Positions 12,077 to 37,161 are shown, numbered from the stretch's first letter. The stretch: DNA of 64,000 bases from a virus (IMGVR_UViG_3300032236_001858); one strand, 5' to 3'. The notes: generated by a model not told the origin, from the sequence alone. Numbers and translations are program-made.

Positions 12077-12241
12077 ATGGCTATTTGGGAAAATATTCCT
12101 TTGATTAAAAGAGAATCTATAAAAAAATCTTTATATAGATTTGATAGAATACAAAGCAGGAAAAAGAAAATTATCAATTTGTTATGTCATTTGCAAGAGG
12201 TTGGGGTAAAGACGGCTGGAAACACAGACAAGAAGATTTAA
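12077..12241 (+). CDS. 54-aa ORF carrying an R-x3-I-x2-L-L motif (not in ORF track)
   Basis: Manual translation MAIWENIPLIKRESIKKSLYRFDRIQSRKKKIINLLCHLQEVGVKTAGNTDKKI; overlaps the next ORF by 58 nt. Confidence 0.45.
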   Translation: MAIWENIPLIKRESIKKSLYRFDRIQSRKKKIINLLCHLQEVGVKTAGNTDKKI

Positions 12242-12342
12242 TGAAGGAATCTTGGGAGATTTTCAGAATAACAAATAGAAAAAGAATAAGAAAATCTAAA
12301 ATTAATAACATATTTAATGAAGTTAGGAAAGAAGTCAAGTGA
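12184..12342 (+). CDS. 52-aa ORF carrying an R-x3-I-x2-I-F motif (not in ORF track)
   Basis: Manual translation MSFARGWGKDGWKHRQEDLMKESWEIFRITNRKRIRKSKINNIFNEVRKEVK. Confidence 0.55.
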   Translation: MSFARGWGKDGWKHRQEDLMKESWEIFRITNRKRIRKSKINNIFNEVRKEVK

Positions 12343-12577
12343 TTTAGAACCAGGTTATGTTTATGTTCCTTATATTCCAATAACAACATCACAAGTTATA
12401 GTTGGTTATGGTTCTAAAAACATAAATAGAAAAAGAAAGATTAATAAAATATTTGATTTAGGTTTAGATATTAAAGATGAATTCTCACCAAGTAAATCAA
12501 TTATGAGTAGATACTCAACAAAGAATATAAATAGTAAATATTACGGAACTATAGAAATAAAAAATCCCACTTTATAA
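12317..12577 (+). CDS. Small protein resembling the C-terminal segment of T4-like major capsid protein, with an inserted RKRKINKIF motif
   Basis: PGYVYVPYIP ... FSPSKSIMSRY..K.IN.KYYGTIEI, versus gp23-type GxxYAPY..L...F.P..G..TRY. Confidence 0.6.
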   Translation: MKLGKKSSDLEPGYVYVPYIPITTSQVIVGYGSKNINRKRKINKIFDLGLDIKDEFSPSKSIMSRYSTKNINSKYYGTIEIKNPTL

Positions 12578-12587
12578 GTGGGATTTT
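12561..12587. terminator. Bidirectional intrinsic terminator
   Basis: AAAATCCCACTT-TAT-AAGTGGGATTTT at a convergent junction. Confidence 0.8.
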
Positions 12588-12589
12588 AG

Positions 12590-13489
12590 TTAAATTTCAT
12601 CCATGAATAATGAATCTAAGTAGTCAATTGTTTCTTTATAACCACCATTTAATTCCCAATTGTCTTCTAAGTAACCAGCAATTTCTGTTGATTTTTCCTC
12701 AACTGATAAATTATCATCATTTGCTACTTCCATGAATTTATTGTAAAGGTCTTCTTTACCATCATATAATTCAAAATCTTTTTCATTTAACCAATCTTGA
12801 AATTTATTCCAATGTGATTCGTATCCATTTGAATCAAACTCTTCATTAAATCTTTTAAGATTCTTTAATTTCTTACTTTCACCAATTGACCAGATTTCTC
12901 TACCTTGTTCATCTTCACCTTTTTTCTTCATCTTTAATTGATTCATTTTATCTAATGCTGCATCAATTTCTTCTTCTGATAAACCACCGGCAATTGCATT
13001 TAACTCTTCTTCTGAGAAAGTGGCCATTAATTCCATTGCTTGTTTGATTTGAATTATTTGATCATAATCTTCTTGAGTTAAAAGATTTTCACCACACTCA
13101 GGACAAGGTTTATTAATTGACTTTTCATAGTCACTAAATGGAACTGACATATCACTCCAATTGCAATTAGGATTATCACACTTCAATCCGTGTACATCTA
13201 AACCTTCTGGTAAATCATGATTCTCAGATAGGAATTTTTCACCATCTAAATTTTTATTAGAAGGTTTGTTAGGTTTTCTTAAATTAACTTTAGGGTCAGC
13301 TAAGAATTTCTCACCATCTAATTTTTTATTAGAAGGCTTAGATGTTTTCATTGAAACATCCGCATCACTTAAAGATTTATCTGCATCTAATTTTTTATTA
13401 GATTGTGGTTTAACATGATCTTGTTTTTTCATATCCTTTGATAAATTTGATAATTTATCATTAACTGGATGTTTCTTAATGTGCTTCAT
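12590..13489 (-). CDS. Modular hypothetical protein: three KP(Q)SNK(K/N)LD repeats, zinc ribbon, internal second leader
   Basis: KPQSNKKLDADK / KPSNKKLDGEKFL / KPSNKNLDGEKFL; CDNPNC...CPECG; internal KKLKNLKRFNEE. Confidence 0.7.
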   Translation of the reverse strand: MKHIKKHPVNDKLSNLSKDMKKQDHVKPQSNKKLDADKSLSDADVSMKTSKPSNKKLDGEKFLADPKVNLRKPNKPSNKNLDGEKFLSENHDLPEGLDVHGLKCDNPNCNWSDMSVPFSDYEKSINKPCPECGENLLTQEDYDQIIQIKQAMELMATFSEEELNAIAGGLSEEEIDAALDKMNQLKMKKKGEDEQGREIWSIGESKKLKNLKRFNEEFDSNGYESHWNKFQDWLNEKDFELYDGKEDLYNKFMEVANDDNLSVEEKSTEIAGYLEDNWELNGGYKETIDYLDSLFMDEI

Positions 13490-13490
13490 A

Positions 13491-14057
13491 TTATTTATTG
13501 TAGGTTAATTTGTAGATAGTTCTATATAACAAGGCTACTACCTCGTCTACTAAATTATGTAGATGTGTATCTTTCTCATCAAAGCATTTTCTTTCTGCTC
13601 TTATCCATTCAACAACTTCTTTGAAGTAGTCTAATTTATCTTTAGATTTAGTATCTGTTGTATCAATTTCGTCATATCCTTCAAGTAGACCATATTGACC
13701 TTGATAAACCTCAACAATTTCATCAATATGTTCAATTACGCCTTCATAGTAAGCTTCTAAAGCTAGGTGAGCAGCGTGTGAACCCATATCACCTTTAACT
13801 GTCCAGTGATAAACTTGAGCCATTTCTCTTGATTGTAATAATTTAGACATGAATTTAACAACGGTTACATCACCTGTTGTTTCTGTTTTTTCTTCTTCGG
13901 CCTCATCTTTATTATCTTCGGCTTCTTTAGTCTTAGATTGACCAGCCATTAACTTAATCAATTCTTCTTTTGACATATCTTCATAGTTTTCAGGAAGATT
14001 AGCTTCTGATTCGAATATCTTCTTTTTAACTGGTTTAAAATCTGAAAATTTTTTCAT
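13491..14057 (-). CDS. Ferritin/Dps-like four-helix protein (DUF5856-type) with leader
   Basis: MAQVYHW...SHAAHLALEAYYE...IDEIVEVYQGQYG...DEVVALLYRTIYKL; N-terminus MKKFSDF. Confidence 0.75.
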   Translation of the reverse strand: MKKFSDFKPVKKKIFESEANLPENYEDMSKEELIKLMAGQSKTKEAEDNKDEAEEEKTETTGDVTVVKFMSKLLQSREMAQVYHWTVKGDMGSHAAHLALEAYYEGVIEHIDEIVEVYQGQYGLLEGYDEIDTTDTKSKDKLDYFKEVVEWIRAERKCFDEKDTHLHNLVDEVVALLYRTIYKLTYNK

Positions 14058-14093
14058 TTTTAATTTTTAATTTTTATAAAGTATATATTACTT

Positions 14094-14306
14094 TTATAAA
14101 TCCGATATTCTTTCATCGGTTTGTTCAATATTATCTATTGTATAGTTAGAACCGTTTTCAATTGATGACAAAGCTGAATCTGCTAAGTATCCTGCTTCAC
14201 CTTCATTTTCGGCTGGTATGATTAACTCAACTTGAGCAATTACTTTGTAGTATTTCTGATTTGAGTTATTTTCTAGTATTTTACTGAATTTCTTCATTTT
14301 TATCAT
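14094..14306 (-). CDS. Small hypothetical protein with leader (probable start 14297)
   Basis: MKKFSKILEN. Confidence 0.65.
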   Translation of the reverse strand: MIKMKKFSKILENNSNQKYYKVIAQVELIIPAENEGEAGYLADSALSSIENGSNYTIDNIEQTDERISDL

Positions 14307-15402
14307 TTATTATTTTTGATATTTTCTTTTTAATGTTGTCACCATTTTTATTGAACTGTCTACCCCAATACTCAATAAACTGTTTACAACTCATTTTTCT
14401 GAAAGTATCTAAAGGTATAATTGGTTTTGCATTTTGGTCTTTTACTTCTTTTTCATAAACTTCAACCCACATTTGTTTTAACTTATCAGCAACTTCTTTT
14501 TCATCTTTACAACCAGCTAGAAGCTCATTACTCGTATCTTTCCAATTGTAGTGAGCCGATATTTCATTAATTAGATATACATAAAACATATCAGCATCAA
14601 ATTTTTGCATCTTATCAAATGTTTGCCAAATTTTAAATTCTTTAACATCCTTCTCAGGATATTTTGTAATAAAGTATTTAATTTCTTGAACATTGGCGTT
14701 CATCTCGTGTGATTCACTCATATAAATATACTTTAGAAATTCACTATTCCATTTTTGCCAAATAGCTTTAGGGAATTTCCATTTGTTATTTTCAGCGTAT
14801 GTAAGAGATGTGTTAAAGCTTCTATCATAAATAGGTCTATACTCACCTCTTTTTGTTCCTTTTTTAGTTCTTTTATAGTGTTCGTAACAGTGATTTAACT
14901 CATGATATAAAGTAGAAGCTATCCCATCTATTATAGATTCTTTATGTTCTGGTTTATTTATATCAAAATTAATTTTATCAATATCAATACCAACAGATAA
15001 TTGAATAATAAGTCCGTGATCTGTAACTTGTTTTACTGGTTTAACAATTTTAGAATAATTTTTCCAGTTTTTATTACCAAATCCTGAGGCATAACCACCT
15101 ATGGCTGTGTAATTTGCATAACCATATAAAGAATTAAATTTTAAAGGCATCATTTTTTTGAAATCTAATATTAGTTCAAATCCAACTACTGGGAAGTCAG
15201 CATATAATTGTTTATCCTTTATATAAGGAACTAATGTTCTGTATTTTATCTCAACTCTTTCGTCTAATTTTGTTTCTTTTGAATTTAAAAAATCTATAAA
15301 ACTATAGTATGTTTTATTCTCAAGAACATCAACAAACATTAAACTTGATTCGGAAACACCATGTCTTTCTAGTAGAAACTGTTTAAAATTAAAAATCCCC
15401 AT
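14281..15402 (-). CDS. Putative zincin metallopeptidase with capsid-targeting-like leader
   Basis: TLYHELNHCYEH (HExxH) and downstream HEMNANVQE; N-terminus MGIFNFKQFLLE. Confidence 0.65.
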   Translation of the reverse strand: MGIFNFKQFLLERHGVSESSLMFVDVLENKTYYSFIDFLNSKETKLDERVEIKYRTLVPYIKDKQLYADFPVVGFELILDFKKMMPLKFNSLYGYANYTAIGGYASGFGNKNWKNYSKIVKPVKQVTDHGLIIQLSVGIDIDKINFDINKPEHKESIIDGIASTLYHELNHCYEHYKRTKKGTKRGEYRPIYDRSFNTSLTYAENNKWKFPKAIWQKWNSEFLKYIYMSESHEMNANVQEIKYFITKYPEKDVKEFKIWQTFDKMQKFDADMFYVYLINEISAHYNWKDTSNELLAGCKDEKEVADKLKQMWVEVYEKEVKDQNAKPIIPLDTFRKMSCKQFIEYWGRQFNKNGDNIKKKISKIINDKNEEIQ

Positions 15403-15433
15403 AAGTCTATATATTAAAAACCTATGGGGATTT
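15393..15433 (-). promoter_or_regulatory. Hairpin sequestering the AUG of 15402, with the late promoter inside its loop
   Basis: 11-bp perfect inverted repeat AAATCCCCATA (15393-15403) / TATGGGGATTT (15423-15433); TAATATATA at 15408-15416 on the minus strand. Confidence 0.7.
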
Positions 15434-15448
15434 ATTTAATTTATTAAA

Positions 15449-15886
15449 TTAGTTTTTACTATCTAATACGTCACTGAGTTGTTTGTTTCTTAAAGATTGA
15501 ATATCAATATCAGTTTCAACATACTCAAAGAAATCTAATTCTACCATTTCTCTGTATTTTTTTGATTCTTCTTCATTGGCCATGTTGTGTAGTCTATTTT
15601 CAACTGACTCCCATTTATTTTTAGCCTCTGGTTTACCATATTTTTTATTGAGAGATTCATTGAATTTTTCATATTCTTCGATGCTGACTCTTAGGATATC
15701 TTCCATTTCATATGTGTACTCACTAATAGAACACTCCTTAAACTCTTTAGTGTTCAGTTCATCAACTTTTTGTTGAGCTTCTTCTTTTGAAAAAACTATT
15801 AGATTTGGATTCCCACCTTCTGTTGGGTTGTAAATGTTATCATCATATTCAAATCCTTTTCTTAAAATTACATACGCTTTTTTCAT
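15449..15886 (-). CDS. Hypothetical protein with C-terminal R-x3-L-x2-V-L motif
   Basis: Ends SLRNKQLSDVLDSKN. Confidence 0.75.
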   Translation of the reverse strand: MKKAYVILRKGFEYDDNIYNPTEGGNPNLIVFSKEEAQQKVDELNTKEFKECSISEYTYEMEDILRVSIEEYEKFNESLNKKYGKPEAKNKWESVENRLHNMANEEESKKYREMVELDFFEYVETDIDIQSLRNKQLSDVLDSKN

Positions 15887-15887
15887 A

Positions 15888-16373
15888 TTACTTTATTTCT
15901 ATATTAGTTAACCATTTATTTACTTGATGTTCCGCCATATCACAAATTTGTTCCTTTGTGAAGCCCATATTTGTCATTATATCAAATATCATTATTAAAC
16001 AATCGGTTGATTCTAATAAGATATTTTCTTTTATTTTTTCTTTACTTTCGTTACTTCTTTTATACTCAATTAGTTTAAGGATTTCTGCTGATAACTCACC
16101 ATACTCTTCTCCTAATTTTAAACCTCTTTCTAAAAGACCGTGTTTTTCATACTTAGAAGCATTTGTAACTAAGTCATATACATAGTCTATCAGTGGTTCT
16201 GTTGTTATATCTTCTTTTGTTGGGTTTCCTTTTCTTTCAAATTCTTCCATTAGAATTTCTAAAATTTCAACATTGTTGGATTCTTCTTCGTTTAGCTCAC
16301 TATGGAAGATTGATTCTAAGTATTTCTGAGCTTGATTGTAATCGTATAGTGTTCTAATTGGTTTTATTTTCAT
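15888..16373 (-). CDS. Fusion of a HigA-antitoxin-like N-terminal segment and a MazG-like NTP pyrophosphohydrolase
   Basis: IKPIRTLYDYNQA...EILEILMEEFE; KLGEEYGELSAEI...LESTDCLIMIFD (ExxE...ExxD). Confidence 0.6.
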   Translation of the reverse strand: MKIKPIRTLYDYNQAQKYLESIFHSELNEEESNNVEILEILMEEFERKGNPTKEDITTEPLIDYVYDLVTNASKYEKHGLLERGLKLGEEYGELSAEILKLIEYKRSNESKEKIKENILLESTDCLIMIFDIMTNMGFTKEQICDMAEHQVNKWLTNIEIK

Positions 16374-16432
16374 AAAAAGTTAATTTCTTGAGTGTGAAAA
16401 ATAATATATACTACAAATATAATTGTTTATAC

Positions 16433-16678
16433 ATGAAATTAATAAAAAAGTTTGAAGAATTTGTTTACGGTGCTGGTTCACCTGCTCCTTCTACAAATCC
16501 TACTACAGCACCTACAAAGCCTGCTACAAGACCTTCTACAAAGCCTGGTAAACCTAGTCCAATTAGAAGAGATAAGCCAGCTGTTGAACCAGCTCCTAAA
16601 GCTGAGAAGAAATTAAAAACAGCTACAATGGAAGAGGTAATTCATAAGTTTGCGGACTTAACAAATCAAAAATACTAA
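16433..16678 (+). CDS. Small Pro/Thr-rich protein with capsid-targeting-like leader (track start 16388; ATG 16433 more likely)
   Basis: MKLIKKFEEFVY; PAPSTNPTTAPTKPATRPSTKPGKP. Confidence 0.7.
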   Translation: MKLIKKFEEFVYGAGSPAPSTNPTTAPTKPATRPSTKPGKPSPIRRDKPAVEPAPKAEKKLKTATMEEVIHKFADLTNQKY

Positions 16679-16679
16679 T

Positions 16680-18197
16680 ATGAAAGATTTTAAAAAATTC
16701 TTAGAAGAAGTAACTATAAAAGGCAACCCTGGTGTTCCAAACGAAGGTGATAAAAGACCTGGTGATAAAGACTATCTTAAAGATACTGAAGCAAGAGCTA
16801 AGGCTCGTTTAGGTTTATCTGGTCGTGAACACCCTATGCAAATTGGCCCTAGATTAATGCAGTTGGTTGATCAATCTCAACAAGCAACTCGTGGACACGA
16901 AGAAGAGTTAGAAAACTTAGCTAAGGAAATTATTACACAAAATTATGGTGAGATTCTTGATGGTGTTGAACTTGATATTAAATTATTAAGATCTGGTTCT
17001 CAAATTGCTCAATTTATGCAAGACTGTGAAGAAGAACAAGATGAAGAAAAAGAAGCTCCAAAGTTTAGACAAATTCAAGATCCTGCTACAATTAATAAAA
17101 TACACAAGGCTAAATTAGGTAATAATATTATTCAAGGTGAAGCTAAAAACACTAAACATATTATTGCTACTGAAGAAGTTAAGAATGGTTTGATTGATAT
17201 TTTTGGACCAAAAGCTGATCAGATTTTAAATATGTGGAAAGAAATTAGTAATCTAGCTGATAAAATGGATTGGATTATTCCTATTGAAGTTAAGGCTGAT
17301 ATGATGGAAAGAGCTCCACAAGGTATGGCTGGTGCTGTTTCTGTTGATTGGAAACCTAAACAAAAAGAAGAAGAGGAAGAAAAAGAAGAAAGTGATGAAG
17401 ACTTTGCTACTAGAATTCTTAATGACTTAGCAAATAGTGAAGAACCAAATGAAGAGGATAAAGAAGAATTTGGTGAAGAAGTTCAAGGTGCTACTCCAAG
17501 AATTAGAGCTCGTGGTATTGACTTTCCAATGTTGATTCATGAAACTGTTAAAGGTATTTATGAATTGATTGCTTCAATTCAATTTCCAGCTGAAGGTTCT
17601 TCAGAAGAAGAAGTTAAAATGGCACAAACTGTTAAATTAAATGTTTCTTCATTTGAAGATGAAGCTGAGGATTTCAGAACAGGTCCAGAGATTGCTGCTG
17701 ACTTTAGAGATTTTATCAATGAGAATCCAAATGTTGAACATCCAAATATGAGAGCATTTATTTTTGGTAAATTAATGGATTCAAATTACATTTCTGATGC
17801 TGACTTCTTAAAATTATTTAGAGGTATCTTAAATAAAACTCCAGAGGCTCGTAGAAAAATCGATGAGATGATTGATGAGATTAATCAAGAGTTAAATAGA
17901 TATGAATTGGGTCAAGTTCTTGATGTTGAAGAACCATATGAACAAGAGCATGAAGAAGATGATGATACTATGATGCCAGGTAAAGCTGAGCAAGAGGTTC
18001 CTCAAAAAGCGGCTGAAGTAGATTATTCTGAATTGACTCAAAGAGAATTACAAGAATTAATTGATGATGCTTTGGATGAAGGTGATTATGATAAAGTTAG
18101 AATGTTATCTCAATATATGAAAGAAGGTAAAGAAATTTATCTAAAAGAATTAGAAAGAATTAATGAAGGTCATAACTTTCATACAAGAAGAAAATAA
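16680..18197 (+). CDS. Acidic hypothetical protein with leader and C-terminal UvrB/UvrC-like helical motif
   Basis: MKDFKKFLEE; poly-E tracts; LQELIDDALDEGDYDKVRML. Confidence 0.7.
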   Translation: MKDFKKFLEEVTIKGNPGVPNEGDKRPGDKDYLKDTEARAKARLGLSGREHPMQIGPRLMQLVDQSQQATRGHEEELENLAKEIITQNYGEILDGVELDIKLLRSGSQIAQFMQDCEEEQDEEKEAPKFRQIQDPATINKIHKAKLGNNIIQGEAKNTKHIIATEEVKNGLIDIFGPKADQILNMWKEISNLADKMDWIIPIEVKADMMERAPQGMAGAVSVDWKPKQKEEEEEKEESDEDFATRILNDLANSEEPNEEDKEEFGEEVQGATPRIRARGIDFPMLIHETVKGIYELIASIQFPAEGSSEEEVKMAQTVKLNVSSFEDEAEDFRTGPEIAADFRDFINENPNVEHPNMRAFIFGKLMDSNYISDADFLKLFRGILNKTPEARRKIDEMIDEINQELNRYELGQVLDVEEPYEQEHEEDDDTMMPGKAEQEVPQKAAEVDYSELTQRELQELIDDALDEGDYDKVRMLSQYMKEGKEIYLKELERINEGHNFHTRRK

Positions 18198-18206
18198 TTA
18201 TAAAAA

Positions 18207-20162
18207 ATGAAATTATTTAAGTATAACCAATTTTTAGGTGATAAGCCATTAAATGAGAATCTAGACAAAGCTAAAAAGTTCTTGAAAGATAGATTTTTAT
18301 TAAAGACTGCTGCTACTGATCTTGGATTTGTTCAAGGTGAGTTAAAAGCTCAGTTAGATCATAAAGAAAAAAGAAGCTTAGTTTTAGGTGATTTTACACC
18401 AGAACAACAAGAAGAGATAAAAGGTAAACTAAGAACTCTTAAATTAAAAGATGATGAAGTAAGAACTATTGAGAGAGATCCTGAGTTCTTAAAAATCAGA
18501 GAAGCTTTAGGTCAGCAATATATTGGTTGGACTTATCCTTTTACTTATTTCTACTTTGTTGAGATGGTTTCTATGGATGAACTATTCACAAATGAAGGAA
18601 GTATATTCAATAAACTTATTGAGTATAAAGGTTTGTTAGATAAACTACCTAAGAAATTTGACCAAAACTTTATTGACACAAATATTCCTAACAATGCTGA
18701 GGTTTTAATTGATGGATTAGATTCTTTAGAAGATTATAGAAAGATTAAGAAGGTAATTGATAAGTTAACACCGGTTCTTAAAAAAGACTATATGGATTCA
18801 CCAGAAGTTATTAAAGGACAATTTGCCGATGTTTGTAGAGGTTTTGACCAATTAGGTGGTGAAGATGAAGTTAAAAAAGAAAAACTATGGAAGTCATTCT
18901 TTGGTGAAGTTAGAACTATTGATACTGACCAAGTTATTCACGGTAAAGCTTATAAGAAAGGTGATAAAAGATATTTTGGACCACTTAACAGATATACTAA
19001 CATTAGAGAGTTTATTAAAGCGGCTCAAAATTATTTAAAATCATCTGAGAATGAAACGGTTCTTGCTTTCTATGATAAGATTAATGCTTGTAACGAAAAA
19101 TATGGTACACAAGGCGCTGATACAGTATTTGAAGAAAATGGTATTTTAATTATTGAAGTTAAATCTTTCCAAGCTAATCAATTCTTAAATGGTCACACAA
19201 GACACTGTATTAAAGATTACTCTTCACAATGGGAAAACTATGTGGCTTCACATAACAATAAACAATATTATATTTATAACTTTAATATTCCTCAATATGA
19301 TAACCTCTCAACTATTGGTATCACAATTGAACCTGGTCAAAAAATTAGAGCTTGTCACCTTAAAGATGATGCTGGATATTCGAGTAGTATTAAATCTACT
19401 TTGTCTAAATGGCAAAAAGAATATGATATTAAAGAAGACCTTTTTGCTCAACTTAAACCTATGACTGAAGAAGAAATTAGAAGAAGAGAAAGAGCTAAAC
19501 TTGCTGAAAGAGAAATTATTAAGAAAGGTTTATCAATTGAACAAATTAAACAATATGTTAGAGAAGATGGTGCTAATATCAATAAAGATAATTGTGTAGC
19601 TCTTTTACATGCTGTTGAAGAAAACAACCACGAGAAAGCTAAAGTTATTTTAGAATTAGGTGGTTCTCCAAACTTGAGAAGTAAAGCAGATGCTATTATT
19701 AATAAGGCACAAGACTTAGATATGATTAAACTACTTGTTGCTAATGGTTCTGAATTAACAGGTGAGGTATTTAATAACATTTGTAATGACCTTGAGGCAG
19801 TTGAATATTGCTTAAAACAAGGATTAGATCCAAACTTTGATAACTCACTTCCAATCAGAAGATGTTGTAAAGGTGGTTGGAAATCTAAAGATGATATTGG
19901 TGAAGGTTATTTTGATGTATTCCAGTTACTTGTTAAATATGGTGCTAGATTAGCAGACGAGGGTGGTAGAAATATGGCTATCAAATGGGCGGCTGAATAT
20001 GGTAGATTAAACTTTATTGATTATATGATTAGTAAAGGTGTTAAAACAGGTTTCAAAGCAGCTTTATCTTGGTTAAATCATAGTAGAAAAACACCAGATA
20101 ATGTTAAGAAAACAACGGTTGCTTATCTTGAAGATAAAATTAAACAATACGGTGATGTATAA
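18207..20162 (+). CDS. Ankyrin-repeat protein with capsid-targeting-like leader
   Basis: MKLFKYNQFLGD; ALLHAVEENNHEKAKVILELGGSPN, YCLKQGLDPN, AIKWAAEYGRLNFIDYMISKG. Confidence 0.8.
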   Translation: MKLFKYNQFLGDKPLNENLDKAKKFLKDRFLLKTAATDLGFVQGELKAQLDHKEKRSLVLGDFTPEQQEEIKGKLRTLKLKDDEVRTIERDPEFLKIREALGQQYIGWTYPFTYFYFVEMVSMDELFTNEGSIFNKLIEYKGLLDKLPKKFDQNFIDTNIPNNAEVLIDGLDSLEDYRKIKKVIDKLTPVLKKDYMDSPEVIKGQFADVCRGFDQLGGEDEVKKEKLWKSFFGEVRTIDTDQVIHGKAYKKGDKRYFGPLNRYTNIREFIKAAQNYLKSSENETVLAFYDKINACNEKYGTQGADTVFEENGILIIEVKSFQANQFLNGHTRHCIKDYSSQWENYVASHNNKQYYIYNFNIPQYDNLSTIGITIEPGQKIRACHLKDDAGYSSSIKSTLSKWQKEYDIKEDLFAQLKPMTEEEIRRRERAKLAEREIIKKGLSIEQIKQYVREDGANINKDNCVALLHAVEENNHEKAKVILELGGSPNLRSKADAIINKAQDLDMIKLLVANGSELTGEVFNNICNDLEAVEYCLKQGLDPNFDNSLPIRRCCKGGWKSKDDIGEGYFDVFQLLVKYGARLADEGGRNMAIKWAAEYGRLNFIDYMISKGVKTGFKAALSWLNHSRKTPDNVKKTTVAYLEDKIKQYGDV

Positions 20163-20163
20163 T

Positions 20164-20192
20164 AAAAAACCCACTTAATTAAGTGGGTTTTT
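20164..20192. terminator. Bidirectional intrinsic terminator
   Basis: AAAAACCCACTT-AATT-AAGTGGGTTTTT. Confidence 0.85.
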
Positions 20193-20246
20193 AATTTTAA
20201 ATACTTGAGAATATTTATTTCTGAATACAAATATACGGAATATTTT

Positions 20247-20966
20247 TTATCTCTCCCTATTCCCTTTGAGGATTTGATATAAAAGCCACCCATCATTTAT
20301 ATCTTCATATGGTTTAGGTATTGTTGAAACAGCCATAAGTTCATCTTTTATAGATTTACAATGCTTAGACCAGAAGTCATTTATTTTATCATTTTCAATT
20401 ATTGAAAGGGCCATGTCATTTTTGGTAAATTTACCACCAGGTATGCCTAACTTATTTCTATATTCTTCAACTATCTTAATCTTTTTGATACCAGTTTCTT
20501 TTCTAATTGGTTCATATGCCAGCTTACAAGCTTCTAATTTAAGAGTTGATGGAGACATAACTAAAATGTCTTCAGACACCTGGTCAAACAATTTTTTTCT
20601 CAAAAGTGTTGAGAAAGTTACTAAGTCAATAAGGTCACCTACTTGAGCACCAAAGTTATAACCTTCAATGCCTATTTTAGTTTCTTTATTAGGGTCAATA
20701 TTTGCTAAGATATCTTCAATTATTTGATCAGTTATTGCATCATAATCTTTTAACTTAGTTAATTCACCTTCTGAATAATCCTCAAATTCTCTATACTCAA
20801 TGAACTTATAAGTTACATATTGTTCAGCGGATTTGAACCATTTAGTGATTCCTTTTTTACCAAATACTTTAGATTCTCTACAATAGTTGTAGATTTTAAA
20901 ACTATCACCAGAACTTACTACAAGTGCGGTTGATATTAATGAAGGGTCAATTGCTACTATATTCAT
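20247..20966 (-). CDS. RuvC/RNase H-fold Holliday junction resolvase-like protein (track start 20984)
   Basis: IVAIDPSLISTALVV, IGIEGYNFG, SPSTLK, EDINDGW. Confidence 0.7.
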   Translation of the reverse strand: MNIVAIDPSLISTALVVSSGDSFKIYNYCRESKVFGKKGITKWFKSAEQYVTYKFIEYREFEDYSEGELTKLKDYDAITDQIIEDILANIDPNKETKIGIEGYNFGAQVGDLIDLVTFSTLLRKKLFDQVSEDILVMSPSTLKLEACKLAYEPIRKETGIKKIKIVEEYRNKLGIPGGKFTKNDMALSIIENDKINDFWSKHCKSIKDELMAVSTIPKPYEDINDGWLLYQILKGNRER

Positions 20967-20991
20967 AATTCTATATAGTAACAATTCATGT

Positions 20992-21393
20992 CTACCACTC
21001 TCTTTCTTTATCTTTTGGTTTGTGTCCTATTTTAGATATTACTAATTCATAGTAGGCATCAGTTTGACCAAAATCTGAAGAATACACATATAAATTAAAC
21101 TCTTTTAGATGTTCATTTACATCATTAATTAGTTCAAATATCTTTGGTTCAACATAATGTAAAACAGATAAATCAATCATAGATTCATATCCGGACTCAT
21201 TAAATACAATAATAAAACAATTATCATCTTTTTCAATTAAAGATGATTGTAAAGAATCTTCTACATAGTATTCTAATTTAGGGAACTCATCAGTTATATG
21301 ATAAAGTATCTCACTTAAATCTTGATATGATATATCAAAATCATTTTGTAGTGAAAATCTTTCTGTTATAAATTGATTGTATTTCTTTATCAT
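20992..21393 (-). CDS. Hypothetical protein with capsid-targeting-like leader
   Basis: MIKKYNQFITE. Confidence 0.75.
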   Translation of the reverse strand: MIKKYNQFITERFSLQNDFDISYQDLSEILYHITDEFPKLEYYVEDSLQSSLIEKDDNCFIIVFNESGYESMIDLSVLHYVEPKIFELINDVNEHLKEFNLYVYSSDFGQTDAYYELVISKIGHKPKDKEREW

Positions 21394-21395
21394 AA

Positions 21396-21869: not shown

Positions 21870-21907
21870 AAAGTATATATTAATTTTGACAATTCAAGTA
21901 TTTTCTT

Positions 21908-21915
21908 TATCTTTG
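21908..21915 (+). promoter_or_regulatory. Bacteroidota-type -7 promoter element TATCTTTG
   Basis: Matches TAnnTTTG; TTTTGAC about 24 nt upstream; precedes ATG 21934. Confidence 0.6.
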
Positions 21916-21933
21916 TATTATAAATCACTACAA

Positions 21934-22386
21934 ATGCAAGGTCGTAAGTTAAAAAATTCAGATGCTCTTAAATTTATGTTTGCTGGTAAATCTATTGTTA
22001 CTTTTTTGAATACCAAAACCGGCAATCGTTTTACTTTTAAGATAAAAGCCGCTAAAGACTCTAATATGTTTTTTGTTAGTATTTTGAATGGTCCTGAAAA
22101 CTTTACTTATATTGGAACTTGCATTGAAGGTAAGTTTAGACACGGTAGCAAATCTAATATATCAGCTGATGCTCAGTCTGTAAAAGTATTTGATTTTGTT
22201 TTAACTAAGCTTGTATTAGGAACTTTACCAGAGTTTGTTGAAGTTTGGCACGAGGGTCATTGTGGTAAATGTGGTAAAAGATTAACAGTTCCTTCTTCTA
22301 TTAAAAATGGCTTAGGACCGGAGTGTATTAAAACTCTTACTAAGATGGAAAAAAGAGATAAATTTTTACAATTGATACTATCATGA
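21934..22386 (+). CDS. DUF6011-like zinc-finger protein with C-terminal R-x3-L-x2-I-L motif (track start 21886)
   Basis: HEGHCGKCGKRLTVPSSIKNGLGPEC; ends KRDKFLQLILS. Confidence 0.75.
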   Translation: MQGRKLKNSDALKFMFAGKSIVTFLNTKTGNRFTFKIKAAKDSNMFFVSILNGPENFTYIGTCIEGKFRHGSKSNISADAQSVKVFDFVLTKLVLGTLPEFVEVWHEGHCGKCGKRLTVPSSIKNGLGPECIKTLTKMEKRDKFLQLILS

Positions 22387-22862
22387 TTGTAGCTTTAATG
22401 CCTTTTATTTTTATTGCTTATTATATTTTTCTAATTAAAAAAAGAAAGAGTATTTCATATGATCTTAAACATGGTTTAAGATGCTTTTCTTGTAAAGAAG
22501 AAATAGAAATGAGTGATATTGATAAATATAATCTACTATCTGATATACTTAATAAGTTAAAAAATAATGAAGATGCAAAGAAATTTACCATTTGTAAATC
22601 CTGTGAGCGAAATCAAAAATTAGATGATTTAGTTACACACAAAGGAGTATCAAGAATTAATAAATTAAAAATATTTCTTATATCTGAAAAATCAAATAAA
22701 TTAAATTTATGGTTAATATTTGGCTTAGTTTTATTTCTGTTAATAGATGTCTTTTTTAGGATATTTTTTAAAATTAACTTTTTCAGCTATATTTATAATA
22801 TCTATCTGTGCTTTTACTGGTGTATTATGATATACAAACAAAAAATTACTTCAATAAAATAA
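22383..22862 (+). CDS. Membrane protein with central CxxC...CxxC zinc ribbon
   Basis: N-terminal and two C-terminal hydrophobic segments; CFSC...CKSCERNQKLDDLV. Confidence 0.65.
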   Translation: MIVALMPFIFIAYYIFLIKKRKSISYDLKHGLRCFSCKEEIEMSDIDKYNLLSDILNKLKNNEDAKKFTICKSCERNQKLDDLVTHKGVSRINKLKIFLISEKSNKLNLWLIFGLVLFLLIDVFFRIFFKINFFSYIYNIYLCFYWCIMIYKQKITSIK

Positions 22863-22897
22863 AAAAAACCTCTGAAAATTAATTCAGAGGTTTTTTT
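22861..22897. terminator. Bidirectional intrinsic terminator
   Basis: A8-CCTCTGAA-AATTAA-TTCAGAGG-T7. Confidence 0.85.
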
Positions 22898-22898
22898 A

Positions 22899-22934
22899 GG
22901 GCCGACTGGATTTGACTCCCTTCCGCATCCACCA
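22899..22934 (+). pseudogene. tmRNA-like remnant: 5' end joined directly to 3' end
   Basis: GGGCCGACTGGATTTGAC resembles a tmRNA 5' end; TTTGACTCCCTTCCGCATCCACCA resembles a T-arm/acceptor 3' end with CCA; no body between them. Confidence 0.45.
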
Positions 22935-22936
22935 CC

Positions 22937-34587: not shown

Positions 34588-35070
34588 ATGATTAAATTTA
34601 GTAAAATGGTAACTGAAAATGCTAGTACATCTGGTTTTAAGTTAGGATTAGATGTTCATGGAGTTATAGATGCTATGCCTGAGTTCTTTGCTTTTCTAAC
34701 TGATTCATTTGTTAAAAATGGTGGTGAAGTTCACCTAATAACTGGTGGTCATTGGAACGAAGGATTTGAAAAACAACTAACTGAATGGGGTATAAAATGG
34801 TCACATAAATTTTCAGTTTATGACCATCTAATTGAAACTGGTGCTAATATTGTTGGTGAAATTCAATTCCCAGATGGAACAATTCAAAAGAAATTTGAAG
34901 ATGGTCTTTGGGACCATGTTAAGTCTGACTATTGTAAACAACATAATATATCATTACATATTGATGATACCTTGGTGTATAATGATTTTTTCCAAACACC
35001 ATTTGCTAGATTATGGTCACATAATCAAAAACCAAAAGCGTCTCATAAAGACCTAAGACACTTAAAATAA
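34588..35070 (+). CDS. HAD-like hydrolase with short leader
   Basis: MIKFSKMVTEN; LGLDVHGVID, LITGG, K...LHIDD; TAATATATA at 34575-34583. Confidence 0.65.
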   Translation: MIKFSKMVTENASTSGFKLGLDVHGVIDAMPEFFAFLTDSFVKNGGEVHLITGGHWNEGFEKQLTEWGIKWSHKFSVYDHLIETGANIVGEIQFPDGTIQKKFEDGLWDHVKSDYCKQHNISLHIDDTLVYNDFFQTPFARLWSHNQKPKASHKDLRHLK

Positions 35071-35498
35071 TGAAAAAATCCGCTGGTGTAGTTATTGTCT
35101 TGAGAAAAGACAAGGTATTTCTTTGTCATCCAACCAACTCAAATTGGTATGGAACTTATTCTTTTCCAAAGGGTGGAGTTGATAAAGATGAAACCACATT
35201 AGATGCTGCTATACGAGAACTAAAAGAAGAAACATCTATTGTAGTTAATACAAAACAAATATCAAATATTAAAGATCCTATTGTTGTTTATTACCAAAAT
35301 AAAAAGGGTATCTTATATAAGAGTATAGCTTTATATACGGTTTATATAAATAGTGTCTCTGAGATTGGTTTAGAGTCAGAAATTCTTCCAAAAGAAAGAC
35401 TTCAATTAGAAGAAGTTGACTGGGCCGGTTTTCTTACAAAAGAAGAAGCTAAATTAAGAATTTTTCATAAGACCGCTTCTGTATTAGAAACAATTTAA
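35070..35498 (+). CDS. Nudix hydrolase
   Basis: PKGGVDKDETTLDAAIRELKEETSI. Confidence 0.9.
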   Translation: MKKSAGVVIVLRKDKVFLCHPTNSNWYGTYSFPKGGVDKDETTLDAAIRELKEETSIVVNTKQISNIKDPIVVYYQNKKGILYKSIALYTVYINSVSEIGLESEILPKERLQLEEVDWAGFLTKEEAKLRIFHKTASVLETI

Positions 35499-35534
35499 TA
35501 CTAATGGTGTATAAATAAAAAATAAACTTTATTT

Positions 35535-35951
35535 ATGCCTTTACCTTTTTCCAATAATTTAAATTCTGCTGTTAATACATCAATACCTATAGCAATGATG
35601 TATCAAGGAGAAGAAAAAATTGAAATAAATTTAGACCATCCTATTTTTGTAGTTTATGTTAATACTAAAAATGTAAGTCCTCAAGTAGCTGAGGAGCATT
35701 TATATAAAACAAAAAAGATGTTTGATATCTATAAAAACATTACCGTTTGGGTTTTATCTTCTGATGAAAACAAAGTTGAATGTGTTTATGATGGTCAGTG
35801 TAGACAAAGAGATATGGAAATAAGTGACTTAATAAAAGAAATAAATACAAGAATTGACATTATGTCTAAATCAAACTCTTTTGAAGATTTCAAAATTAAC
35901 ATTAGGGATTGGCGAATAAATGAACTTGTAAATGGCTCTAAAGAAGAATAA
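35535..35951 (+). CDS. Hypothetical protein with C-terminal R-x3-I-x2-L-V motif
   Basis: Ends IRDWRINELVNGSKEE. Confidence 0.7.
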   Translation: MPLPFSNNLNSAVNTSIPIAMMYQGEEKIEINLDHPIFVVYVNTKNVSPQVAEEHLYKTKKMFDIYKNITVWVLSSDENKVECVYDGQCRQRDMEISDLIKEINTRIDIMSKSNSFEDFKINIRDWRINELVNGSKEE

Positions 35952-36303
35952 AACAGAAATACTTGATAAGATAATAACCAATGAAGAACTTGGTTATTAT
36001 CATTGGAGTTGGTTGGATGATGATGATTGGGATTATCATGATGGTTATTGTGATTGCTATATGTGTATGCCTGTTGACTATGATTACTTACCAGATGAGT
36101 TTCAACCTAAACCAATTGAGCATATTAGTAAGAGAGGTATTAGAGTAACCATAAGTTCATATCAAACAGGTAGATTAATAGATATGACTTCTATTTATTC
36201 TAAAGAAACTCTTAGGCAAAAAAGAATCAACCATATTTTAGGCATAGAATCAATGGAACATTCTCGTCCAACTTTTGCGGATATTTTGAATATTAAAAAA
36301 TAA
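35932..36303 (+). CDS. Hypothetical protein with CxCxxC and R-x3-I-x2-I-L motif
   Basis: GYCDCYMC; LRQKRINHILG. Confidence 0.65.
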   Translation: MALKKNKTEILDKIITNEELGYYHWSWLDDDDWDYHDGYCDCYMCMPVDYDYLPDEFQPKPIEHISKRGIRVTISSYQTGRLIDMTSIYSKETLRQKRINHILGIESMEHSRPTFADILNIKK

Positions 36304-36334
36304 TCCTTATCTTTGTATAACAAAATTAAAAGAT

Positions 36335-36475
36335 ATGGATATAACATTATTAGTTTCAGACGTTCTTGACAATCAGAATTTGGATGTTAATGGTGTAGGT
36401 GATTTTCTTCAGATGGCTGAAGATTATAAATATCAACTTTTAATGGATGAACTCAATGCTGAGTTAAATTCATAA
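36335..36475 (+). CDS. 46-aa acidic ORF (not in ORF track)
   Basis: MDITLLVSDVLDNQNLDVNGVGDFLQMAEDYKYQLLMDELNAELNS; TATCTTTG at 36308-36315. Confidence 0.5.
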   Translation: MDITLLVSDVLDNQNLDVNGVGDFLQMAEDYKYQLLMDELNAELNS

Positions 36476-36481
36476 TAATAA

Positions 36482-36553
36482 GGTCGGGTGACCGAGTGTT
36501 TTAGGTGGAGGCCTGCAAAGCCTTTAACGGTGGTTAGAATCCATCCCCGACCT
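36482..36553 (+). tRNA. tRNA-Cys (GCA), no encoded CCA, variant elbow (U19/A56)
   Basis: Acceptor GGTCGGG/CCCGACC, discriminator T; anticodon arm GAGGC-CTGCAAA-GCCTT; T arm GGTGG-TTAGAAT-CCATC. Confidence 0.9.
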
Positions 36554-36567
36554 CTAATTTTATATTA

Positions 36568-37161
36568 ATGGCAAATTCATATCGTTTAGGTACGGTTCAT
36601 ACCAACTATTTATCAAATGATGAACTAAAAACTGAGTTCAGAGATTACAAGTTAAAAGTTATTAATGGTGACGTAAAGTTTACACCATCTGAAAGGTTCA
36701 TAGAGAAATATAAAGAAACTTTGTATTTCATTTCAGATAAATTTCCTAATGATATTATCAGTGGCTCACTAGCATTGAATTTATTTGGTCTTATTAATCG
36801 AGACACAAATGATATTGATATCATAATTGATGATAAAGATAGATATCCTAAATATCATAAAGACCATTATGATGATGAATTCTCTTCAGTAAACAGATTG
36901 GGTTTTATTGCGTTCAAATATAAAAGAGGTATTTTTACTTCTGAGAAAAAATATAATGTGGATTTCTTCCATAATACTTATGGTGCTTCTTTTATTACAT
37001 TTAATTTCAATGGTAAGGAACTTAAACTTCACAATCCTTTAGAGGTTATGGATTATAAGTTAAATATGGCTATTGATCCAAAAATTAGTAGAACTACTTC
37101 TTTTAAACACAATGAAGATTTGACAAGAATTTTTGGTCAAATGTCTTGGCAATTAATGTAA
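36568..37161 (+). CDS. Pol-beta-fold nucleotidyltransferase
   Basis: IISGSLALNLFG...DTNDIDII (GS...DxD), VDFF, K...KH..DL. Confidence 0.75.
   Translation: MANSYRLGTVHTNYLSNDELKTEFRDYKLKVINGDVKFTPSERFIEKYKETLYFISDKFPNDIISGSLALNLFGLINRDTNDIDIIIDDKDRYPKYHKDHYDDEFSSVNRLGFIAFKYKRGIFTSEKKYNVDFFHNTYGASFITFNFNGKELKLHNPLEVMDYKLNMAIDPKISRTTSFKHNEDLTRIFGQMSWQLM

What the first reader, a model, noticed from the sequence alone, without database searches (positions are those of the whole stretch)
12077..37161. A second shared tag, R-x3-(I/L)-x2-(I/L)-(L/F/V), in about 13 small non-virion proteins
Seen near the C-terminus: IRKSKINNIF (12184), LRNKQLSDVL (15449), KRDKFLQLIL (21934), TRKEKIKRIF (30977), NRELLIRKIL (32040), MRDKKIKSIL (33794), KRESSLKNIL (34191), IRDWRINELV (35535). 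Seen internally: SRKKKIINLL (12077), NRKRKINKIF (12317), ERNQKLDDLV (22383), LRQKRINHIL (35932), and partially FRDYKLKVIN (36568). The carriers are otherwise unrelated, none has the N-terminal head tag, and several follow host-type promoters. The i, i+4, i+7, i+8 spacing gives one face of an amphipathic helix. Inference: a short linear docking motif that recruits many accessory proteins to one hub (a phage or host complex, a membrane site, or a protease adaptor). That would be a second addressing code, complementary to the head tag. I know of no description of it.
Basis: partly seen in the sequence, partly recalled or inferred. Interest (0 to 1): 0.87.

Follow-up and report, generated by a model that had tools for sequence, protein, structure and literature searches.

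The report
Shared C-terminal tag on huge-phage proteins
About one in five proteins of this 476-kb phage, almost all small and otherwise unrelated, end in the same ten-residue arginine-anchored helix. It behaves like an address label read by one partner that I could not identify, and I found no description of it in the papers searched.

Summary
Genome-wide, 123 of about 630 predicted proteins (19.5%) end in R-[DE]-x-K-[IL]-x-x-[IL]-[LFI]-x-stop or R-[DE]-x-K-L-x-x-L-G-I-stop, against fewer than 1 expected in shuffled proteins.

- **Selection acts on the peptide.** Codons at the conserved positions follow genome usage, I and L interchange, Arg outnumbers Lys 112 to 9, and the tag persists in relatives with 24-37% GC.
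- **Carriers.** They are small, soluble and unrelated in sequence, and are enriched in operons behind host-type promoter-like sites.
- **The tag is an add-on.** Homologues of one carrier in cultured phages phiM9 and CcrColossus lack it. AlphaFold2 models it as an unpacked terminal helix.
- **Distribution.** Three related huge-phage genomes and a 40-kb stretch of the published 635-kb record LR745206.1 carry it. Two distant huge phages lack it.

Best reading: a docking tag for one common reader, possibly for collective turnover by the phage's own ClpC/ClpP. No reader was identified, and the one complex prediction gave no verdict. Generic membrane binding and DNA- or RNA-level signals are disfavoured. 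This scan noted analogous tags with different sequences in other large phages, but not this one.

The parts
22354..22380 (+). Tag RDKFLQLIL (+1 residue) ending the 150-aa DUF6011 protein 21934-22386
   Evidence: Invariant in 120 homologues. Absent from the phiM9 and CcrColossus homologues. AF2 models it as an unpacked helix at residues 137-149, pLDDT about 45.
15464..15490 (-). Tag RNKQLSDVL (+4) ending the 145-aa protein 15449-15886
   Evidence: Orthologues in L001-L004 end in REKKITEILN, REKQISQILN, RENQINEILN and REKQVSSILDK.
31109..31135 (+). Basic-variant tag RKEKIKRIF (+3) ending the 56-aa protein 30977-31147
   Evidence: Similar endings in relatives: RKEKIKRIFNG and RKEKINRIFNV.
32265..32291 (+). 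Tag RELLIRKIL (+1) ending the 85-aa protein 32040-32297
   Evidence: L001 has REILLKKILE.
34133..34159 (+). Tag RDKKIKSIL (+1) ending the 123-aa protein 33794-34165. Best consensus match in the window.
   Evidence: (PSSM 22.1 bits).
34542..34568 (+). Tag RESSLKNIL (+2) ending the 128-aa protein 34191-34577
35904..35930 (+). Tag RDWRINELV (+6) ending the 138-aa protein 35535-35951. The next ORF's ATG (35932) follows directly.
   Evidence: L006-L008 have RDWRIGK[IL]FNE.
12289..12315 (+). Basic-variant tag RKSKINNIF (+8) in the 52-aa ORF 12184-12342. A probable member.
   Evidence: The ORF overlaps its neighbours and was not kept by my gene caller.
12158..12184 (+). RKKKIINLL inside ORF 12077-12241, 18 residues from its end. 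The next ORF's ATG (12184) overlaps the last motif codon. Possibly a former tag plus stop/start overlap (TTATGT where TTATGA would give a stop).
   Evidence: The 'former overlap' reading is inference from the sequence.
12428..12454 (+). RKRKINKIF internal in the 86-aa ORF 12317-12577, 40 residues from the end. Membership uncertain.
36214..36240 (+). RQKRINHIL, 20 residues before the end of the 123-aa protein 35932-36303. Membership uncertain.
22608..22634 (+). RNQKLDDLV, mid-protein in 22383-22862. Probably a chance match.
   Evidence: Strict internal matches are near the shuffle expectation.
36640..36666 (+). RDYKLKVIN near the N-terminus of 36568-37161. A partial match, probably chance.

Best explanation
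The motif is a modular C-terminal peptide tag: a short helix, R-[DE]-x-K-[IL]-x-x-[IL]-[LFI]-(N/K) or ...L-G-I, usually with the Arg ten residues from the end. It has been appended to about 120 unrelated small soluble proteins of this huge Bacteroidota-type phage, mostly products of probably early operons behind host-type promoter-like sites.

- **Shown:** the tag is selected as a peptide, is specific for Arg, is conserved across a phage clade, and is absent from homologous domains in other phages.
- **Inferred:** one common reader with a hydrophobic groove and an Arg-binding acidic site recognises the face R0-Phi4-Phi7-Phi8 and handles all carriers as a class.
- **Speculative:** the outcome I consider most likely is collective turnover or unfolding of the accessory proteome by the phage's own proteostasis machinery. 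That machinery includes an N-domain-less ClpC that keeps the VGF loop for docking ClpP, a catalytically intact ClpP lying inside a tagged gene array, DnaK, and J-proteins (the last from an earlier scan note, not checked here).

For: - **Enrichment:** 123 of about 630 proteins against fewer than 1 in shuffles.
- **Peptide-level selection:** codon choice at R, K, I and L follows genome usage (R: AGA 48, CGT 12, other 8) and I and L swap. The tag is kept in genomes of 24%, 30% and 37% GC.
- **Arg specificity:** 112 R against 9 K at the anchor position among 222 C-termini with Phi-x-x-Phi-Phi. Background frequencies are R 3.4% and K 8.9%.
- **Unrelated carriers:** one BLASTP pair among 68. Only 11 of 121 have any Pfam hit, in 9 different families.
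- **Purifying selection on the pattern:** 47 of 57 divergent orthologue pairs keep a tag. R is 100% identical, Phi positions 60-70%, x positions 28-36%, flanks 30-47%. The ILx and LGI endings interchange between orthologues.
- **Modularity:** DUF6011 homologues in phiM9 and CcrColossus stop before the tag.
- **Exposure:** the AF2 helix at 137-149 has pLDDT about 45 and is not packed on a confident domain.
- **Probably early operons:** tagged fraction 35% against 15%, p = 6e-7.
- **Candidate machinery in the genome:** ClpC lacking its N-domain, ClpP with PF00574 E = 1.8e-55 and Ser/His/Asp present, lying within the 433-474 kb tagged arrays, and DnaK.
Against: - No reader was identified. The single complex prediction (DUF2201/VWA protein with a tag-bearing tail) gave no verdict.
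- ClpC lacking its N-domain and ClpP also occur in two huge phages that lack the tag. The Clp pair is therefore not tag-specific.
- The distance from the tag to the C-terminus varies (0-8 residues after the motif). This argues against recognition of the free carboxylate as in ssrA-type degrons.
- No expression timing, stability or localisation data exist.
- Early expression is inferred only from promoter-like consensus matches.
Confidence: 0.55

Rival explanations
1. Self-association handle. The tags bind each other rather than a separate hub. Arg and D/E would form inter-helix salt bridges and Phi4/7/8 a small core. The result would be oligomerised carriers or mixed assemblies or condensates of accessory proteins.
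For: R and D/E are adjacent and conserved, and the hydrophobic positions follow a heptad-like i, i+4, i+7/8 stripe that continues upstream at -4. No separate reader was found.
Against: Nine to ten residues is short for a stable coiled coil. AF2 gives no packing. Nothing was tested directly.
Confidence: 0.1
2. Cargo-loading peptide. The tag docks small proteins to the inside of the giant capsid or scaffold, like encapsulin C-terminal loading peptides. This would be a second packaging route beside the N-terminal head tag.
For: The tag is a short, conserved C-terminal helix on unrelated cargo-like proteins. The phage has a separate N-terminal tag class, and the two are mutually exclusive. Two tagged proteins give weak Gp23 (capsid) Pfam hits.
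Against: Carriers are enriched in operons behind host-type (probably early) promoter-like sites and lie in accessory-gene arrays, not morphogenesis modules. 123 different cargo species would be unusual.
Confidence: 0.08
3. Generic membrane-targeting amphipathic helix of the MinD/FtsA type.
For: It is a C-terminal short helix. The basic sub-variant R-K-x-K-I-K-R-[IL]-F resembles the E. coli MinD tail LKRLF (recalled from memory, not tested).
Against: - R:K is 112:9, whereas charge-driven lipid binding accepts either.
- Mean hydrophobic moment is 0.32 against 0.30 for random internal 11-mers.
- Mean hydrophobicity is below the proteome average.
- 43 of 123 tags have net charge of 0 or less.
- There are only three hydrophobic residues.
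Confidence: 0.06
4. Translational role of the nascent tail. The last roughly 10 residues would act in the ribosome exit tunnel at termination, slowing release and promoting re-initiation on the tightly overlapping next gene.
For: Tagged genes are unusually tightly coupled. 30 of 89 overlap the next start by ATGA, 72% lie within 5 nt of it (48% for untagged small genes), and the TGA stop is over-used. Arg sits a modal 10 residues from the stop.
Against: The spacing from Arg to the stop ranges from 9 to 17 residues, unlike arrest peptides. 17 of 106 tagged genes have no same-strand downstream gene, and about 29 more have the next start more than 15 nt away. The tag differs between phage clades that would use similar ribosomes.
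Confidence: 0.06
5. Nucleic-acid-level signal (promoter, initiation region or recombination site for cassette shuffling) that merely happens to be translated.
For: The motif lies 26-32 nt upstream of the next ATG in 53 of 89 cases. The L-G-I ending often carries AGGA or AGGT five nt before an overlapping ATG. There is a mild ATA excess at position 7.
Against: - Synonymous sites follow genome codon usage, and Arg uses both AGA and CGN.
- I (ATH) and L (TTA/CTN) interchange.
- The motif is always in the upstream gene's frame, although overlaps vary in phase.
- It is conserved as a peptide across 24-37% GC.
- It is present where no downstream gene follows.
Confidence: 0.04
6. Clamp-binding (PIP-box-like) peptide. 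The tag would tether accessory proteins to the phage or host sliding clamp.
For: The spacing [DE]1-x-x-[IL]4-x-x-[IL]7-[LF]8 near a C-terminus equals the PIP-box spacing Q1-x-x-h4-x-x-a7-a8 (from knowledge of PCNA clients). The phage has a T4-type clamp-loader-like AAA+ protein.
Against: The recognisable replication proteins examined (PolB fragment, UvsX-like protein, ligase, RNase H-like protein, clamp-loader-like ATPase) do not end in the tag. No gp45-type clamp was detected by Pfam. There are no aromatic residues at positions 7 and 8, and no Q. Carriers are ORFans in accessory arrays.
Confidence: 0.05

Closest known systems
C-terminal degrons of Clp proteases (ssrA tag; MuA-type basic/aliphatic 'C-motif 2' recognised by ClpX)
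   Same: A short C-terminal peptide that can be placed on any protein and marks it for one machine. It has basic plus aliphatic character. The phage encodes its own ClpC-like unfoldase and ClpP.
   Different: The sequence is different, and the distance to the free C-terminus is variable. It is helical with an invariant Arg. No degradation was shown. ClpC/ClpP also occur in tagless relatives.
Encapsulin cargo-loading peptides and bacterial-microcompartment encapsulation peptides
   Same: Short, conserved terminal peptides, helical in the microcompartment case, shared by unrelated cargo proteins and read by one shell protein. Encapsulin shells share the HK97 fold with phage capsids.
   Different: There is no sequence resemblance. 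Carriers lie in probably early accessory arrays, not beside capsid genes. The number of carriers (about 120) is far larger.
T4 capsid-targeting sequence (N-terminal) of internal proteins
   Same: A phage-encoded address peptide on otherwise unrelated proteins. This genome appears to have such an N-terminal class as well (about 24 proteins).
   Different: It sits at the opposite terminus, has a different sequence, is mutually exclusive with the N-terminal tag, and there is no sign of a cleavage site.
PIP-box / clamp-binding peptides
   Same: The hydrophobic spacing is the same (4, 7, 8) and it lies near a C-terminus. One hub serves many clients.
   Different: There is no Q and no aromatic pair. 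The replisome proteins of this phage that I examined lack it.
Analogous clade-specific C-terminal tags noted by this scan in other large phages (e1-1616325, e1-1618766, e1-4772764, e1-831089)
   Different: The sequences differ (...V-M-E-S; [ST]-R-[YF]-E-R...V-I; P-E-x-x-L; N-W-[KR]-x-[VI]-L). Those notes are unverified by me.

Membership tests
ssrA / ClpX-ClpA C-terminal degrons | Recognition element at the extreme C-terminus including the free carboxylate (..LAA-COOH or RRKKAI-COOH) | tested here: not met
   0-8 variable residues follow the motif, and the last residue is variable (N, K, I, G, S...).
ssrA / ClpX-ClpA C-terminal degrons | Tag-dependent degradation by a Clp protease | not testable with these tools
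   Only the presence of phage ClpC lacking its N-domain and of ClpP is shown.
ssrA / ClpX-ClpA C-terminal degrons | A phage tmRNA whose tag peptide resembles the motif (this would link the tag to a degron) | tested here: not met
   ARAGORN finds no tmRNA in the whole genome. Rfam finds none in 160-300 kb.
Membrane-targeting amphipathic helix (MinD/FtsA type) | High hydrophobic moment, net positive charge, K and R interchangeable | tested here: not met
   Hydrophobic moment 0.32 against 0.30 background. 43 of 123 tags have net charge of 0 or less. R:K is 112:9.
PIP-box / clamp-binding motif | Q-x-x-[ILM]-x-x-[FYW]-[FYW], or the bacterial QL[SD]LF | tested here: not met
   The logo has D/E rather than Q, and I/L plus L/F/I/G rather than an aromatic pair. 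Only the spacing matches.
PIP-box / clamp-binding motif | Present on the replicative polymerase and other replisome clients | tested here: not met
   The C-termini of the PolB fragment, UvsX-like protein, ligase, RNase H-like protein and clamp-loader-like ATPase lack it. The C-terminal part of the polymerase was not located.
Encapsulin / microcompartment targeting peptides | Carriers encoded with, and packaged into, a shell.
   Carriers lie in accessory arrays behind host-type promoter-like sites. No virion proteome is available.
PDZ / tail-specific-protease ligands | A PDZ-domain reader encoded by the phage | tested here: not met
   No PF13180 match in the genome. Other PDZ models and host proteins were not searched.
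pArg-dependent ClpC degradation (McsB system) | McsB-type arginine kinase, and a ClpC N-domain with pArg sites | tested here: not met
   No PF00217 match. The phage ClpC aligns to B. subtilis ClpC only from residue 149 and so lacks the N-domain.
Single divergent paralogous family | Detectable similarity or a common fold outside the tag | tested here: not met
   One BLASTP pair among 68. Nine different Pfam families among 11 annotated carriers. Lengths range from 45 to 581 aa. The tag is absent from DUF6011 homologues elsewhere.

The most novel reading that the evidence does not exclude
Huge phages of the clade related to the published 635-kb record LR745206.1 run a proteome-wide addressing code. 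A ten-residue Arg-anchored C-terminal helix marks roughly a fifth of all phage proteins (the fast-evolving, probably early accessory set) for one dedicated phage- or host-encoded reader. The whole class can then be localised, chaperoned or destroyed together. The tag co-evolves by clade (R-[DE]-x-K-Phi-x-x-Phi-Phi here, R-K-x-K-L-x-x-Phi-N-x-Phi in a 24%-GC relative). Together with different tags noted by this scan in other large phages, this would be a general and undescribed organising principle of large viral proteomes.
Probability: 0.45. Interest if true: 0.88.

Novelty: new variant of a known kind. Interest (0 to 1): 0.78.

Why it matters
Most genes of huge phages are small ORFans with no handle for study. 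A shared, transferable tag on about 120 of them means they are treated as one class by some machine. It would also give a portable tag for engineering in Bacteroidota and their phages, and a sequence signature for recognising this class of accessory genes in metagenomes. If the analogous tags noted in other large phages work the same way, this is a general feature of how large viruses organise their proteomes.

Tried and rejected
**Complex prediction**
- The single job paired the DUF2201_N/VWA-like protein (L024:4935-6515) with the last 44 residues of window:33794-34162, plus Mg. It gave no verdict (score 0.00, partner pLDDT below 50). It is not evidence either way.

**Reader hunting by presence and absence**
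- I looked for proteins shared by the four tag-bearing genomes and missing from the two tagless ones.
- This left 17 proteins: a sigma70-like factor, a rhomboid, the DUF2201 metallopeptidase/VWA protein, a weak MoxR-like AAA+ protein, RecA-like, S1, ligase, collagen-like, RNase H-like and DUF7487 proteins, and unknowns.
- The tagless genomes share almost no proteins with G000 by BLASTP, so the test has little resolving power.
- ClpC/ClpP as a tag-specific reader: both are also present in the tagless G003 and G005.

**Searches of this genome that found nothing**
- PDZ_2, Lon_C and McsB.
- gp45-type clamp families PF02916 and PF09116.
- tmRNA.

**Other checks**
- PDB sequence searches of the MoxR-like and VWA proteins gave no hits.
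- The protein just upstream of ClpC (115 aa, tag-like RREEILDKVL plus 9 residues) looked like a possible adaptor. The Atlas gives an Hcp/tail-tube-like fold (TM 0.74), not ClpS or MecA. The lead was left open.
- De novo search for another C-terminal motif in the tagless G003 found nothing strong.

**Literature**
- Five full-text searches, plus term look-ups in Al-Shayeb et al. 2020 (PMC7162821), found no description of such a tag.
- The look-up of this scan's earlier notes for look-alike stretches found none.

Full report
**1. What is in the window**

- Eight lie 1-8 residues from a C-terminus: ORFs 12184, 15449(-), 21934, 30977, 32040, 33794, 34191 and 35535.
- Five are internal: ORFs 12077, 12317, 22383, 35932 and 36568.
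- The window has 28-33% GC.
- It is part of a single 476,236-bp viral contig with 29.9% GC, which IMG/VR classes as a provirus. The search tool gives CheckV completeness as 97%.

**2. Is it more than chance?**

I called about 630 ORF-based genes on the whole contig (ATG starts, greedy longest non-overlapping, 93% coverage).
- The strict motif R-x3-[IL]-x2-[IL]-[LFV] occurs 101 times, 68 of them within 8 residues of the C-terminus.
- 300 per-protein shuffles give 23.8 +/- 4.7 in total and 1.3 +/- 1.1 near the C-terminus (maximum 5).
- The reversed motif gives 15 in total and 0 near the C-terminus.
- The K/I/L-rich composition therefore does not explain it.
- Strict internal matches (33 against about 22) are near chance. 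High-scoring PSSM matches more than 8 residues from the end number about 27 and exceed shuffles.

An iterated position matrix restricted to the last 20 residues converges on 123 proteins (19.5%), against 0.85 per shuffled proteome. Almost nothing scores between 7 and 11 bits.

| Position | Residues (of 123) |
|---|---|
| 0 | R 120 |
| 1 | D 52, E 31, N 12 |
| 3 | K 84 |
| 4 | L 64, I 58 |
| 5 | N, K, D or E |
| 7 | I 67, L 47, V 9 |
| 8 | L 60, G 27, F 15, I 14 |
| 9 | I, N, K, or the end |

- When position 8 is G, position 9 is I or L and the protein ends there. This gives a second ending...R-D-x-K-L-x-x-L-G-I-stop.
- The Arg is most often exactly 10 residues from the end: 46 of 106 cases, range 9-17.

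**3. Peptide or nucleic acid?**

Several results point to selection on the peptide.
- Synonymous codons at the conserved positions follow genome usage. R is AGA 48, CGT 12 and others 8, against 53 and 7.9 expected for AGA and CGT. K, D, E, N and F are also as expected.
- I (ATH) and L (TTA/CTN) interchange. The only deviation is a mild ATA excess at position 7.
- The motif is always in the frame of the upstream gene, although stop/start overlaps occur in several phases.
- It is present on 17 genes with no same-strand downstream neighbour, and on about 29 whose next start is well separated.
- It is retained as a peptide in relatives with 24%, 30% and 37% GC.
- Among 57 divergent orthologue pairs (22-71% identity), 47 keep a tag. 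In these pairs R is 100% identical, the hydrophobic positions 60-70% (I/L swaps count as mismatches), the x positions 28-36% and the flanking protein 30-47%.
- Orthologues switch freely between the ...ILx and ...LGI endings.

An unbiased tabulation of all 222 C-termini with a Phi-x-x-Phi-Phi pattern shows 112 Arg and only 9 Lys four residues upstream. Lys is 2.6 times commoner than Arg in the proteome.

**4. Who carries it?**

- Carriers are 45-581 aa long and make up 30% of all proteins under 160 aa.
- They are almost all soluble: 8 of 123 have a TM-like segment.
- They are unrelated to one another: one BLASTP pair among 68 once the tag is removed.
- Only 11 of 121 have any Pfam hit, spread over nine families: DUF1660, Gp23-like fragments, Cse60, DUF6011, DUF2158, TacA1-like, PP-binding_2, DUF2793 and TackOD1.
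- They form long co-directional arrays, for example 355-364 kb and 433-474 kb, where up to 11 consecutive genes are tagged.
- The arrays are tightly packed. 30 of 89 genes overlap the next start by ATGA.
- Bacteroidota-type promoter-like sites (TTG-N17-21-TAnnTTTG) number 129, against 71 +/- 10 in shuffles. 54 of them fall in the 7% of the genome that is non-coding.
- Genes within six positions downstream of such a site are tagged in 35% of cases, against 15% elsewhere (odds ratio 3.0, p = 6e-7). This fits early, host-RNA-polymerase-driven accessory genes. Timing is inferred, not measured.
- True carriers never have the N-terminal MK[HY]LKRFNE-type tag, found on about 24 proteins.

**5. The tag is an add-on and is exposed**

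- The 150-aa carrier at window 21934-22386 belongs to DUF6011 / phrog_20259, whose profiles end before the tag.
- Its 120 closest metagenomic homologues (at least 67% identity) all end in R-D-[KNE]-F-L-x-x-I-L-x.
- The homologues in cultured Sinorhizobium phage phiM9 and Caulobacter phage CcrColossus align up to the conserved GPEC motif and then stop. They lack the eleven-residue extension.
- AlphaFold2 with a 39-sequence alignment gives a confident domain for residues 1-110 (pLDDT mostly 78-94).
- It models the tag as a separate helix at 137-149 with pLDDT about 45, not packed against the domain. R141, D142, F144, L145, I148 and L149 are nevertheless invariant in the alignment.
- High conservation without structural embedding is typical of a binding motif.

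**6. Distribution**

| Genome | Size | Tagged genes | Note |
|---|---|---|---|
| G000 (this contig) | 476 kb | 123/630 | |
| G001 | 483 kb | 61/623 | |
| G002 | 344 kb | 105/494 | 36.6% GC |
| G004 | 235-kb fragment | 55/392 | 24% GC; variant R-K-x-K-L-x-x-[IL]-N-x-[IL] |
| G003 | 308 kb | 1/390 | complete, direct terminal repeats |
| G005 | 288 kb | 2/357 | |

- Eight IMG/VR relatives found with a marker protein (45-90% identity) carry the tag on orthologous and non-orthologous genes.
- G003 shows no other strongly enriched C-terminal pattern.
- A 40-kb stretch of the published 634,780-bp uncultured phage LR745206.1 has 6 tagged genes of 54.
- In Al-Shayeb et al. 2020 (PMC7162821), all genomes above 634 kb are Mahaphages predicted to infect Bacteroidetes. 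The main text never uses 'C-terminal', and its single use of 'motif' concerns Shine-Dalgarno sites.
- Four further full-text searches found no description of such a tag.

**7. How it most likely works**

Shown: a peptide-level, Arg-specific, modular, exposed C-terminal helix shared by a fifth of the proteome.

Inferred: one common reader binds the face R0-Phi4-Phi7-Phi8, probably through a hydrophobic groove with an acidic residue for the Arg.

I favour collective turnover or unfolding because the phage invests in its own proteostasis machinery.
- It has a ClpC-type double AAA+ unfoldase, well conserved with B. subtilis ClpC (phmmer E = 4e-240) from residue 149 onward. It lacks the adaptor- and pArg-binding N-domain but keeps the M-domain (UVR) and the VGF loop that docks ClpP.
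- It has a ClpP with Ser, His and Asp in place, lying inside a tagged array.
- It has a full DnaK.
- An earlier scan note reports J-proteins.

This is circumstantial. The same ClpC/ClpP pair exists in the tagless G003 and G005. The variable tail after the motif also argues against ssrA-like recognition of the carboxylate.

**8. Rivals**

- **Generic membrane helix.** Disfavoured by the R:K ratio, by a hydrophobic moment no higher than background (0.32 against 0.30), by low hydrophobicity, and by 43 of 123 tags with net charge of 0 or less.
- **DNA- or RNA-level signal.** Disfavoured by section 3.
- **Nascent-chain effect on termination or re-initiation.** It fits the tight coupling. It does not fit the variable spacing, the uncoupled carriers or the clade-specific variants.
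- **Capsid cargo loading.** Possible, but the carriers look like early accessory genes.
- **PIP-like clamp binding.** It shares only the 4-7-8 spacing. The replication proteins examined lack the tag and no gp45-type clamp was detected.
- **Self-association of tags.** Cannot be excluded.

**9.

- Presence and absence across four tag-bearing and two tagless genomes left 17 candidates. They include a DUF2201_N metallopeptidase/VWA-like protein that sits just after tagged arrays in three genomes, a weak MoxR-like AAA+ protein, a sigma70-like factor and a rhomboid.
- The tagless genomes are too distant for this test to discriminate.
- One complex prediction (VWA protein plus a tagged tail) returned no verdict.

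**10. Verdict**

The docking-tag interpretation is the best supported, but it is unproven without a reader. This scan noted analogous tags with different sequences in other large phages. Its look-up for look-alike stretches returned none.

Noticed in passing
G000 284643-286775 (L020:4643-6772, +), G000 440754-441512 (-), G000 328751-330532 (+): The phage encodes its own proteostasis set. It has a ClpC-type unfoldase lacking the N-terminal adaptor/pArg domain but keeping the M-domain and the VGF ClpP loop. It also has a ClpP with an intact Ser-His-Asp triad and a full-length DnaK. N-domain-less ClpC plus ClpP recur in five other huge-phage records.
   Followed up: partly
True carriers of it never have the C-terminal tag.
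   Followed up: partly
window 12077-12577 (+): Three overlapping mini-ORFs (54, 52 and 86 aa) each contain the basic variant R-K-x-K-I-x-x-[IL]-[FL]. For the first two, the next ORF's ATG starts on or right after the motif. At 12181-12186 the sequence is TTATGT where TTATGA would give the usual stop/start overlap. This may be a decaying or mis-assembled mini-gene array.
   Followed up: partly
G000 364935-366518 (L024:4935-6515, +) and G000 387168-388301 (L025:7168-8298, +): A DUF2201_N putative metallopeptidase fused to a VWA-like domain, and a weakly MoxR-like (AAA_3/AAA_5) ATPase. BLASTP finds both in all four tag-bearing genomes and not in the two distant tagless ones. In G004 they cluster within about 7 kb with a sigma70-like factor and a rhomboid protease.
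   Followed up: partly
G000 284277-284624 (L020:4277-4621, +): The 115-aa protein just upstream of ClpC ends in a tag-like RREEILDKVL plus nine residues. It is syntenic in G001, and no counterpart lies beside ClpC in the tagless G003. The ESM Atlas model resembles Hcp/TssD tail-tube folds (TM 0.74).
   Followed up: partly
G004 (L174-L185), e.g. L091-L094 and L097: A 24%-GC relative uses a shifted tag, R-K-x-K-L-x-x-[IL]-N-x-[IL], on 55 of 392 genes. It could be used to look for a co-varying reader.
   Followed up: no
G000 85954-86436 within 84859-86385 (+): The family-B DNA polymerase match covers only model positions 18-177 and runs through a TAA. The rest of the polymerase was not located. 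It may be a split or interrupted gene.
   Followed up: no
Genome-wide, e.g. G000 435493-437764 (-): The L-G-I ending is usually encoded TTA-GG[AT]-ATA-TGA. It carries AGGA or AGGT five nt before an ATG that overlaps the stop. The Gly variant may be a compromise between the tag and a Shine-Dalgarno-like element for the next gene.
   Followed up: partly
window 36482-36554 (G000 132971-133043, +): A lone tRNA-Cys(GCA) gene sits between the tagged ORFs, far from the main tRNA islands.
   Followed up: no
Among the 121 tagged proteins of alignment A2 (members not identified): Two tagged small proteins give weak Pfam hits to the major capsid protein family Gp23 (best E = 1e-4).
   Followed up: no
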